Assembly: GCF_003334335.1 (NCBI RefSeq)
Contig: NZ_QOWQ01000219.1
DNA: 328 bases
Source of the DNA: Escherichia coli
GTDB lineage: Bacteria > Pseudomonadota > Gammaproteobacteria > Enterobacterales > Enterobacteriaceae
Reading direction: 5' to 3' (one strand)
Positions 1-328 of this stretch are shown piece after piece. A program made the translations under genes and the position numbers. Numbering within the stretch: position 1 is the first letter of the stretch; every line of letters begins with the position of its first letter. A model generated the notes under the pieces. That model was not told the origin of the DNA. It saw only the letters and a list, made by a program, of their open reading frames with translations, and made no database searches.

Positions 1-308
1 TGCAGTCCGCCCTTTCCGGCACCGGCCAGTCGCGGCACAATGTGGATGACCGTTCCCTCACCCAGCTGTTCGTGAAGACGGGCGTACACCGCCTCCGGTG
101 CCGTGTCCTCACCGGCAATACGTATCTGGTACCAGCCTTCGTTCATCTGACGGCGGAATCCGGGCACCTGTAACGACAGCGCCCGGATGGCTTCCGCTGC
201 CGTGTTCACATACAGGCTGAGGCGGCGGCCAAATCGTTGTAAATCCCCGTAAAGGCAGATGCGTGCCAGTGGCGGTGACGCCAGACAGAATGCGTTCGTC
301 GTTGCCAT
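1..308 (-). CDS. I: Phage tail tip assembly protein I (lambda gpI-like), N-terminal 102 codons; 3' end lies beyond plus position 1
   Basis: Minus-strand ORF starting at ATG (complement of plus 306-308) and open to the window edge. The translation matches my recollection of lambda gpI in blocks such as ARICLYGDLQRFGRR, AEAIRAL, GWYQ(I/V)RIAG and VIHIVPR(L/V)AGA-K-GG. Codon usage and GC third-position bias are consistent with enterobacterial coding DNA. Homology is from memory, not a search. Confidence 0.9.
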   Translation of the reverse strand, partial: MATTNAFCLASPPLARICLYGDLQRFGRRLSLYVNTAAEAIRALSLQVPGFRRQMNEGWYQIRIAGEDTAPEAVYARLHEQLGEGTVIHIVPRLAGAGKGGL

Positions 309-328
309 TTTTCGGAATACCTCTCCCG
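206..328 (-). CDS. K: Phage tail tip assembly protein K (lambda gpK-like, JAB/MPN plus NlpC/P60 family), C-terminal 40 codons plus stop; 5' end lies beyond plus position 328
   Basis: Minus-strand frame open from the window edge to TGA (complement of plus 206-208), translating to RERYSEKWQRRTHSVWRHRHWHASAFTGIYNDLAAASACM*. It overlaps the I start by 103 nt in a different frame, the same overlap length I recall for lambda K/I (K 14276..14875, I 14773..15444). The peptide resembles the lambda gpK C-terminus as I remember it (…RERY..KWQRRTHS.WRHR.W.ASAFTGIYNDL.AAS…). Confidence 0.8.
   Translation of the reverse strand, partial: RERYSEKWQRRTHSVWRHRHWHASAFTGIYNDLAAASACM
320..326 (-). promoter_or_regulatory. 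Candidate Shine-Dalgarno element for gene I (GGAGAGG on the minus strand), lying inside the K coding sequence
   Basis: Minus-strand GGAGAGG sits 11 nt upstream of the I start codon. The spacer is longer than the usual 5-9 nt, so this is a weak or atypical ribosome binding site. No other purine-rich motif lies closer to the ATG. Confidence 0.35.

What the first reader, a model, noticed from the sequence alone, without database searches (positions are those of the whole stretch)
85..134. Divergent segment within the gpI ubiquitin-like domain relative to lambda
Compared with my recollection of lambda gpI (…IAGRDVSTSGLTAQLHETLPDG…), residues 66-85 here read GEDTAPEAVYARLHEQLGEG, while the flanking blocks are nearly identical. 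A substituted loop or helix on a conserved scaffold could be an interaction surface that co-varies with the partner protein (K, L or J). The comparison relies on a remembered reference sequence.
Basis: partly seen in the sequence, partly recalled or inferred. Interest (0 to 1): 0.15.

Follow-up and report, generated by a model that had tools for sequence, protein, structure and literature searches.

The report
Variable helix in phage gpI domain
The flagged stretch is the naturally most variable helix-and-loop of the ubiquitin-like domain of a lambda-type phage tail-tip protein (gpI); related phages swap it by recombination without changes in the neighbouring tail proteins, so it is ordinary phage mosaicism and not a co-evolving contact surface.

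Summary
The minus strand of the window encodes the last 40 codons of tail protein gpK, overlapping by 103 nt the first 102 codons of gpI. This allele is 98-99% identical to hundreds of E. coli lambdoid and Stx prophages.

What holds up:
- The stretch is the least lambda-like part of the domain (8/20 identical, against 63/102 overall).
- Across 73 diverse homologues, residues 66-86 are the most variable 20-residue stretch of the whole protein. They are also the only indel site in the N-terminal domain (permutation P<5e-5).
- A high-confidence AlphaFold model places the stretch on the beta3-to-last-strand connection of a MoaD/ThiS/ubiquitin-like beta-grasp fold.

What does not:
- Residues 66-85 map to window 54-113, not 85-134.
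- The flanks are not "nearly identical".
- The pairwise clustering of substitutions is not significant on its own (P about 0.16).
- Co-variation with K, L or J is not supported. Lambda-lineage loci carrying two very different segment alleles show no fixed differences in L, K or J. All 37 fixed differences lie in gpI residues 56-161, a sharply bounded recombination cassette.

Verdict: real, but ordinary and low interest.

The parts
1..308 (-). Coding sequence for gpI (tail tip assembly / tip plug protein I) residues 1-102. ATG at window 306-308. The ORF runs off the window at its low end.
   Evidence: Translation; Pfam PF06805 E=1.6e-17; 131 bits to lambda gpI, PDB 8iyk_I; 99.4% nt identity to phage PhiR5_1 gene I.
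206..328 (-). Last 40 codons plus stop (206-208) of gpK, a Prok-JAB + NlpC/P60 peptidase, in a different frame from gpI.
   Evidence: Translation RERYSEKWQ...AAASACM*; K annotation in L001; Pfam domains of full-length K.
206..308 (-). 103-nt K/I overlap where both frames are coding. It holds the most conserved block of gpI (residues 14-29).
   Evidence: Coordinates. The same overlap is annotated in lambda (14773-14875). dS between window and lambda is 0.17 here, against 0.95 or saturated downstream.
320..327 (-). Shine-Dalgarno-like GGGAGAGG, 11 nt upstream of the gpI ATG.
   Evidence: Read directly from the sequence. The same GAGAGG-N11-ATG arrangement occurs in lambda.
6..269 (-). Beta-grasp (MoaD/ThiS/ubiquitin-like) domain, gpI residues 14-101, ending in the GG motif (window 6-11).
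   Evidence: AF2 pLDDT 95-98 with strands 14-19, 29-33, 60-64, 87-92 and helices 37-47, 51-57, 71-78. Foldseek hits to MoaD, SAMP1, ThiS and ubiquitin at prob 1.00, TM up to 0.74. G96 and G101 are conserved.
51..113 (-). The hypervariable segment, gpI residues 66-86 (GEDTAPEAVYARLHEQLGEGT).
   Evidence: Highest-entropy stretch of the family and its only N-domain indel site. Discrete alleles occur in close relatives. dN 0.82 here, against 0.2 in the flanks.
75..98 (-). Predicted alpha-helix 71-78 (PEAVYARL) inside the segment. L78 is the one conserved anchor residue.
   Evidence: DSSP on the AF2 model. Entropy of L78 is 1.84 bits, against about 3.1 for its neighbours.
1..139 (-). The 5' part of a recombination cassette in gene I (about residues 57-165, continuing beyond the window). 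Its left junction is at the conserved GWYQ(I/V)RIAG block.
   Evidence: nt identity L115 vs L197 is 93-100% up to about I nt 165, 20-68% for nt 170-500, then 85-100%. Fixed differences are confined to gpI 56-161. Recombinant proteins a-c-a, b-c-a and b-a-b.
108..110 (-). Codon 67 (GAG, Glu), the only tri-allelic site of gpI within the window's own lineage (GAT Asp / GAG Glu / TAT Tyr).
   Evidence: I67 is D 26, E 14, Y 9 among 49 unique loci. It is one of 19 such sites among the 1505 examined in L, K, I and J(1-800).

Best explanation
The segment is the least constrained part of the N-terminal beta-grasp (MoaD/ThiS/ubiquitin-like) domain of the lambdoid tail-tip protein gpI. It is the connection between strand beta3 (WYQIRIA) and the last strand (VIHIVP), and consists of a short bridge, an 8-residue helix and a loop.

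Only one or two hydrophobic anchor residues (L78, L82) are kept. The other positions drift freely and tolerate indels. The window's version therefore differs from lambda's because the two belong to long-separated allele families.

In E. coli and Salmonella lambdoid prophages the segment is also the 5' part of a central cassette of gene I, about residues 57-165. The cassette comprises the variable helix, the GG linker and the first hydrophobic helix. Homologous recombination at conserved junctions moves it between phage lineages independently of genes K, L and J.

Shown here: the fold, the position of the segment, family-wide hypervariability, the cassette boundaries, and independence from K, L and J.

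Inferred, not shown: that the variability reflects relaxed constraint. A possible contributing reason is that the N-terminal domain is a transient assembly-phase module, which is never resolved in virion structures and was predicted by Iyer et al. 2006 to be cut off after the GG by the gpK JAB peptidase.
For: - Identity of the gene and domain.
- Family-wide hypervariability: residues 66-86 have mean entropy 3.08 bits (14-65: 2.01; 86-101: 1.74; C-terminal domain: 2.14) and hold all the N-domain gaps. P<5e-5.
- Substitution rates: dN 0.82 in the segment against 0.2 in the flanks, with dS saturated in both, so the pair gives no sign of dN>dS.
- Discrete alleles in close relatives.
- A sharp nt-identity trough limited to I nt 170-500, between flanks at 93-100%.
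- No fixed differences in L, K or J; 37 in gpI 56-161.
- Recombinant gpI proteins P0029 (a-c-a), P0090 (b-c-a) and P0026 (b-a-b).
- The K JAB domain is the most conserved block.
- Literature: the gpI N-terminal domain is unresolved in every lambda tail structure. It is resolved from residue 101 in PMC11101478 and from 134/135 in PMC10721106 and PMC12617516. The same holds for the F-pyocin homologue, described as 'flexible or proteolytically cleaved'.
- The prediction that the K JAB domain cleaves after the terminal Gly: PMC1779556.
Against: - Relaxed constraint is inferred from the pattern, not measured. dS is saturated, so dN/dS cannot separate relaxed from diversifying selection.
- The segment is more divergent than even the receptor-binding end of J in this sample (0.38 against 0.31), and codon 67 is tri-allelic within one lineage. 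A purely neutral reading does not require either.
- The linkage analysis covers only enterobacterial lambdoid loci and essentially three to five allele families. The 9 loci with the third allele may share recent ancestry.
- No coordinates or contact data were available to show that the helix is solvent-exposed.
Confidence: 0.75

Rival explanations
1. One reading: the helix and loop form a contact surface whose sequence co-varies with the partner protein (gpK, gpL or gpJ), so that each allele works only with its cognate partner.
For: - Across the two main lineages every block of L-K-I-J(1-800) differs together (Mantel r 0.77-0.90 with the segment). The crude correlation therefore exists.
- gpK carries a JAB domain that should recognise the ubiquitin-like domain.
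Against: - The correlation is explained by lineage. Within the lambda lineage two segment alleles that differ at 11-12 of 21 residues sit next to L, K and J proteins with no fixed differences. For example, L216 vs L084 differ at 3, 7 and 3 residues.
- The K JAB domain is the least variable block.
- The window-type segment is found in a lambda-type gpI frame (P0026).
Confidence: 0.05
2. Diversifying selection from outside the tail module: the exposed helix is recognised by a host factor or an anti-phage sensor, and allele turnover and cassette exchange are favoured because they escape that recognition.
For: - The segment is the highest-divergence block of the whole L-J region, above the J receptor-binding end.
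- It occurs as discrete alleles rather than a continuum.
- Codon 67 is tri-allelic within a 96-100% identical lineage.
- The cassette moves between lineages.
Against: - No dN>dS signal could be obtained (dN/dS about 0.4 with saturated dS).
- No known defence system is reported to sense gpI in the papers searched.
- Variability with indels in a beta-grasp connection is what relaxed constraint alone predicts.
Confidence: 0.1
3. Intramolecular co-adaptation: the variable helix of the ubiquitin-like domain packs against, or shields, gpI's own hydrophobic helix H1 before assembly. The two would then have to be exchanged together, which would make the cassette a functional unit rather than a product of linkage.
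For: - Segment class and the class of residues 102-160 are almost perfectly associated (A-A, B-B, C-D/E, E-F).
- All 37 fixed differences run contiguously from 56 to 161, including a 12-residue indel in H1.
Against: - The two regions are only 50-100 nt apart, and the intervening sequence is just 57-60% identical at nt level. Simple linkage without a recombination substrate explains the association.
- Exceptions exist: segment class A with 102-160 class C.
- The AF2 model gives no confident packing of the helices (pLDDT about 50 beyond residue 100).
Confidence: 0.1

Closest known systems
Bacteriophage lambda gpI (tail tip assembly protein I / tip plug, UniProt P03730, Pfam PF06805 Lambda_tail_I)
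   Same: Same gene in the same K-I-J position, with the same 103-nt overlap with K. It has the same domain order: N-terminal beta-grasp domain ending in GG, hydrophobic helices, then the C-terminal plug domain. Identity is 62% over the 102 residues in the window.
   Different: It belongs to a different allele lineage of the whole L-K-I-J module. Residues 66-86 are 8/20 identical, with nt identity of 0.44. Residue 14 is Leu rather than Met, so only the upstream ATG can serve as the start.
gpI of Stx-converting and other E. coli lambdoid prophages (e.g. phage PhiR5_1, BP-4795, O104:H4 prophages)
   Same: 97-99.4% nt identity over the whole window, with the same EDTAPEAVYAR segment allele.
   Different: Two to three nucleotide differences from the best database matches. 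Many records annotate a shorter gpI (193-210 aa) that starts inside the beta-grasp domain.
MoaD / ThiS / SAMP / ubiquitin beta-grasp proteins with a C-terminal Gly-Gly, paired with JAB/JAMM peptidases
   Same: The predicted fold matches (TM 0.6-0.74 normalised to the targets). The domain has a C-terminal GG, and a gene with a JAB domain lies immediately upstream. This link was drawn by Iyer et al. 2006.
   Different: Sequence identity is only 8-21%. The domain is fused to a structural tail protein and is not a free modifier or sulphur carrier. Neither cleavage nor conjugation has been demonstrated. The variable helix corresponds to the beta3-beta5 connection, which also differs in length among beta-grasp families (the last point is from my general knowledge).
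Mosaic gene segments of lambdoid phages (recombination at short conserved junctions)
   Same: Sharp boundaries between >93% and <60% nt identity inside a gene. The same cassette appears in different genomic backgrounds.
   Different: Here the exchanged unit is an internal part of one small gene that crosses a domain boundary (the end of the ubiquitin-like domain plus the linker and first hydrophobic helix), not a whole gene or domain.

Membership tests
Lambda_tail_I / gpI family | Significant match to the family profile (Pfam PF06805; PHROG tail assembly protein) | tested here: met
   PF06805 E=1.6e-17 over residues 15-97. phrog_32 E=2.8e-79 and phrog_4244 E=1.4e-86 for the full-length protein of the 99.4% identical phage.
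Lambda_tail_I / gpI family | Gene order L-K-I-J in a siphovirus tail module | tested here: met
   Annotated context in PhiR5_1. The K 3' end is present in the window itself. K, I and J were found together in 218 of the 232 loci (164+35+19).
Lambda_tail_I / gpI family | Hydrophobic helices and a C-terminal plug domain after the N-terminal domain | tested here: met
   These lie outside the window, but are present in the full-length ORF of L001 (226 aa) and align to lambda gpI 12-219.
Ubiquitin-like beta-grasp (MoaD/ThiS-like) domain | Beta-grasp fold | tested here: met
   AF2 pLDDT 95-98 for residues 11-90. Foldseek top hits are MoaD 6jc0_A (TMt 0.73), SAMP1, CysO, ThiS and ubiquitin, at prob 1.00. 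This rests on a prediction, not an experimental structure.
Ubiquitin-like beta-grasp (MoaD/ThiS-like) domain | Conserved C-terminal glycine(s) at the end of the domain | tested here: met
   G100-G101 in the window. In the 73-sequence broad alignment G96 is the top residue in 97% of sequences and G101 in 79%. G96 is also nearly invariant (90% or more) in the 84-sequence alignment A1.
Ubiquitin-like beta-grasp (MoaD/ThiS-like) domain | Processing at the GG by the neighbouring JAB peptidase, or thiocarboxylation or conjugation | not testable with these tools
   Only indirect evidence is available. K has Prok-JAB with the HSHPx7SxxD motif. The N-terminal domain is absent from all cryo-EM maps. Virion mass spectrometry covers 9.87% of gpI, which equals 22/223 and fits only the C-terminal tryptic peptide (this last step is my inference).
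Co-evolving inter-protein specificity surface | Segment alleles are tied to particular alleles of the partner (K, L or J) | tested here: not met
   No fixed or near-fixed differences in L, K or J between loci with two different segment alleles. The K JAB domain forms a single allele class.
Co-evolving inter-protein specificity surface | Residue-level coupling in a large paired alignment | not tested
   This needs thousands of diverse paired K-I-J sequences. Only 105 unique haplotypes from two lineages were available.
Mosaic recombination cassette | Abrupt change of nt identity at conserved junctions, with near-identical flanks | tested here: met
   L115 vs L197: 93-100% before I nt 165, 20-68% for nt 170-500, 85-100% after.
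Mosaic recombination cassette | The same cassette is found in different backgrounds | tested here: met
   The RDAGENEL cassette occurs in window-type (P0029) and lambda-type (P0090, 9 loci) frames. The window-type cassette occurs in a lambda-type frame (P0026).

The most novel reading that the evidence does not exclude
The central cassette of gene I (variable helix of the ubiquitin-like domain plus the GG linker and hydrophobic helix H1) may be a functional unit under diversifying selection. One possibility is that the helix is the recognition surface for an external factor such as a host defence sensor. Another is that it must match H1, which it shields until the gpK JAB peptidase releases the ubiquitin-like domain during tail-tip assembly. 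In either case the allele families would mark functionally distinct, non-interchangeable versions rather than neutral drift.
Probability: 0.1. Interest if true: 0.45.

Novelty: already known. Interest (0 to 1): 0.1.

Why it matters
It matters little on its own. The gene, its ubiquitin-like domain and lambdoid mosaicism are all known, and this exact allele is present in thousands of sequenced E. coli genomes.

Two practical points follow:
- Residues 66-86 should be treated as low-information when aligning or classifying gpI.
- Natural recombinants show that very different versions of this helix work with the same K, L and J. This narrows the search for the surface that the gpK JAB peptidase would recognise, if it processes gpI at all, to the conserved strands and the GG tail.

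The open question is whether gpK actually cleaves the ubiquitin-like domain from gpI. This segment does not address it.

Tried and rejected
- Pairwise statistics alone. The window-vs-lambda clustering of substitutions is not significant (P=0.16 for 20-residue and 0.24 for 10-residue stretches). I therefore moved to family-level entropy.
- The search for related loci with the 84-sequence alignment failed, because no stretch was conserved enough. I used single proteins of three allele types instead. The first scan returned only loci 96-100% identical to the query and was useless for co-variation by itself.
- Global Mantel correlations are dominated by the two-lineage structure. I judged them uninformative and replaced them with within-lineage fixed-difference and nt-profile analyses.
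- dN/dS. dS is saturated outside the K/I overlap, so no selection test is possible from the lambda-window pair.
- Plus-strand ORFs of 21-43 aa overlap the well-supported minus-strand genes. I took them as chance ORFs without searching them.
- Rfam scan of both strands: no match at E<=1.
- A diversity-generating retroelement was considered and rejected without a dedicated test. The alleles differ at almost every position, and by indels in the wider family, not at a subset of template-adenine positions.
- A K-I complex model was considered but not run, because the structure tool returns no coordinates or contacts.
- Literature searches for experimental evidence that gpK cleaves gpI found none in the held library.
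- Early scripts failed because the lambda locus file was not yet available in the sandbox. I worked around this by pasting the sequence.

Full report
**What the window is.**
The coding strand is the minus strand. One frame gives the last 40 residues and the stop of gpK (RERYSEKWQ...AAASACM*, stop at window 206-208). A second frame starts at ATG 306-308 and gives gpI residues 1-102: MATTNAFCLASPPLARICLYGDLQRFGRRLSLYVNTAAEAIRALSLQVPGFRRQMNEGWYQIRIAGEDTAPEAVYARLHEQLGEGTVIHIVPRLAGAGKGGL. The two genes overlap by 103 nt, as in lambda (14773-14875). A GGGAGAGG motif lies 11 nt upstream of the gpI ATG.

The window is 99.4% identical to phage PhiR5_1, where it spans 'tail tip assembly protein K' and 'I' within M-L-K-I-J-lom. 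It is 97-99% identical to more than a hundred Stx-converting and other lambdoid phages. It is also 95% or more identical to sequences in about 1,700 complete E. coli records.

Pfam gives Lambda_tail_I, E=1.6e-17. Full-length K of the same phage carries Prok-JAB (3-105) and NlpC/P60 (111-224). Rfam finds nothing on either strand. The plus-strand ORFs are 21-43 aa and were not pursued further.

**Checking the observation.**
The lambda sequence it recalled is also correct: PDB 8iyk chain I and NC_001416 both read ...IAGRDVSTSGLTAQLHETLPDG....

The coordinates are wrong. Residues 66-85 are window 54-113. The stated 85-134 encodes residues 59-75, which is the conserved strand WYQIRIAG plus the first half of the segment.

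| gpI residues | Identical to lambda |
|---|---|
| 1-102 (all) | 63/102 |
| 66-85 | 8/20 |
| 67-76 | 2/10 |
| 45-58 | 6/14 |
| 14-29 | 15/16 |

The flanks as a whole are 55/82 identical, so 'nearly identical flanks' overstates the case. In a permutation test on this pair alone, an equally poor 20-residue stretch arises in 16% of shuffles. The pairwise observation is therefore correct but not by itself more than chance.

**Family-level variability.**
gpI has 3,222 relatives among clusters at 50% identity with E<=0.001. I aligned 73 diverse full-length members.

| gpI residues | Mean column entropy (bits) |
|---|---|
| 14-65 | 2.01 |
| 66-85 | 3.08 |
| 86-101 | 1.74 |
| 102-155 | 1.80 |
| 156-215 | 2.14 |

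The highest-entropy 20-residue stretch of the whole protein starts at residue 67. Nearly all the gaps in the N-terminal fold also fall there; the only others are at the GG end, residues 99-101. None of 20,000 column shuffles reaches that value. Within the segment only L78, and more weakly L82, are conserved.

That criterion is not met. The segment really is the variable spot of the family.

**Where it sits in the structure.**
An AlphaFold2 model built from 84 sequences has pLDDT 95-98 for residues 11-90. Strands are at 14-19, 29-33, 60-64 and 87-92. Helices are at 37-47, 51-57 and 71-78. Foldseek against the PDB returns MoaD (6jc0_A, TM 0.73), SAMP1, CysO, ThiS, Urm1 and ubiquitin, all at probability 1.00. 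This confirms the ubiquitin-like assignment that Iyer et al. made in 2006 (PMC1779556).

The segment is the connection between beta3 and the last strand: a short bridge (67-68), helix 71-78 (PEAVYARL) and loop 79-86. The domain ends in G100-G101.

All published lambda tail structures lack this domain. gpI is resolved from residue 101 (PMC11101478) or from 134/135 (PMC10721106, PMC12617516). [quoted passage not shown]

Virion mass spectrometry in PMC10721106 reports one gpI peptide with 9.87% coverage. That equals 22/223, and only the C-terminal tryptic peptide has that length. This last step is my inference and is weak evidence.

**Does it co-vary with K, L or J?**
I fetched 232 loci using three gpI allele types as queries. 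I extracted L, K, I and J and obtained 105 unique haplotypes.

L, the K/I overlap, gpI 1-65, gpI 161-226 and J 1-400 (J 401-800 bar two loci) each fall into two lineages: A, the window type, and B, the lambda type. The K JAB domain forms a single class and the NlpC/P60 part of K forms three.

| Block | Mean p-distance | Max |
|---|---|---|
| gpI 66-86 | 0.38 | 0.67 |
| J 801-1157 (receptor-binding end) | 0.31 | 0.61 |
| K JAB domain | 0.083 | 0.188 |

gpI 66-86 is thus the most divergent block of the region, and the K JAB domain is the least.

Within lineage B, 37 haplotypes carry RDVSTSGLTAQ and 9 carry RDAGENELSAR. Between these two groups there is not a single fixed or near-fixed difference in L (232 aa), K (247 aa) or J (1157 aa). 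All 37 fixed differences lie in gpI residues 56-161.

At nucleotide level, L115 and L197 compare as follows:
- 93-100% identical through K and the first 165 nt of I;
- 20-68% identical from I nt 170 to 500;
- 85-92% identical in the rest of I;
- 95-100% identical in J.

Protein recombinants confirm that the cassette moves between frames:
- P0029 is A-frame with the third cassette.
- P0090 is B-type at the N-terminus, has the third cassette, and is A-type at the C-terminus.
- P0026 carries the window-type segment inside an otherwise lambda-type gpI.

So the segment is the 5' part of a swappable central cassette of gene I, made of the variable helix, the GG linker and hydrophobic helix H1 with a 12-residue indel. 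Its left junction is the conserved GWYQ(I/V)RIAG block, at about window 139. It is exchanged independently of K, L and J. The partner co-variation hypothesis is not supported for these alleles.

**Mechanism and rivals.**
The best-supported reading is relaxed constraint on an exposed connection of a beta-grasp domain, plus ordinary lambdoid mosaicism.
- dN is 0.82 in the segment against about 0.2 in the flanks.
- dS is saturated (0.95 to infinity) outside the overlap, so selection cannot be tested from this pair.
- In the K/I overlap dS is only 0.17.

Three rivals remain:
- Co-variation with K, L or J, about 0.05. The evidence here is largely against it.
- External diversifying selection, about 0.1. 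It is suggested by the extreme divergence and by tri-allelic codon 67.
- Intramolecular co-adaptation of the helix with H1, about 0.1. The near-perfect association is equally explained by a 50-100 nt linkage with no recombination substrate between them.

**Comparison with what is known, and novelty.**
All of the following are already described or routine:
- the protein (lambda gpI);
- its ubiquitin-like domain with a C-terminal Gly next to a JAB peptidase (Iyer 2006);
- its role as tip plug (cryo-EM papers of 2023-2025);
- the mosaicism of lambdoid phages.

The exact allele is abundant in the databases. I found no paper in the held library describing the central cassette of gene I specifically. 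It is nonetheless an ordinary instance of a known phenomenon. Interest is low, at 0.1.

Noticed in passing
window 206-308 (minus strand): The 103-nt overlap of gpK's 3' end and gpI's 5' end is coding in both frames. Synonymous divergence from lambda is only 0.17 here, against 0.95 or more downstream. This explains the very conserved ARICLYGDLQRFGRR block.
   Followed up: partly
L001 6021-6123 (window 206-308); proteins P0002, P0011 and others: Many database records, including the PhiR5_1 annotation (193 aa, GTG start after the K stop), start gpI downstream of the ATG. This cuts off strand beta1 (residues 14-19) of the confidently predicted beta-grasp fold. The long ORF has an SD-like GGGAGAGG 11 nt upstream.
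   Followed up: partly
L002 1233-1380 (lambda NC_001416, about 14132-14279): In the lambda reference, the N-terminal 45 residues of the K JAB domain (MTQTESAILAHARRCAPAESCGF..., including the predicted catalytic Glu) are in a different frame from annotated K. Annotated K starts at MSPEDW. This looks like a frameshift relative to prophage homologues, whether real, programmed or a sequence or annotation issue.
   Followed up: partly
window 108-110 (gpI codon 67): This is the only tri-allelic site of gpI within the window's own 96-100% identical lineage (GAT Asp 26, GAG/GAA Glu, TAT Tyr 9). The window carries the less common GAG.
   Followed up: partly
L001 6702-6941, and the I-J spacer of other loci (e.g. 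L197 vs L115): The I-J intergenic spacer varies greatly in length: about 60 nt in lambda and 240 nt in PhiR5_1, with a further insertion of several hundred nt in L197 relative to L115. No convincing ORF was seen in PhiR5_1.
   Followed up: no
J residues 714-781 in window-lineage loci (L001 about 9080-9285): There is a dense cluster of tri- and tetra-allelic positions in J (714, 717, 732, 749, 754, 755, 771, 773, 775, 776, 781) among otherwise near-identical phages. It lies well upstream of the receptor-binding end.
   Followed up: no
gpI residues about 110-135 (outside the window; P0029, P0036, P0090, loci L167, L197): The first hydrophobic helix of gpI exists in a long and a short form (a 12-14-residue indel). 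The short form travels with the non-lambda, non-window segment alleles.
   Followed up: partly
proteins P0006, P0007, P0017, P0077, P0087, P0092, P0105: Database proteins fuse gpI to NlpC/P60 (K) or to minor tail protein L domains. These are probably frameshift or gene-calling artefacts of the overlapping genes. Iyer et al. 2006 did list K-I fusions as real architectures.
   Followed up: no
PMC10721106 supplementary table (lambda virion mass spectrometry): gpI was detected by a single peptide at 9.87% coverage, which equals 22/223. Only the C-terminal tryptic peptide VVSQEISTADEGDGGQVVVIGR has that length. No N-domain peptide is implied, which is consistent with, but does not prove, removal of the ubiquitin-like domain.
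   Followed up: partly
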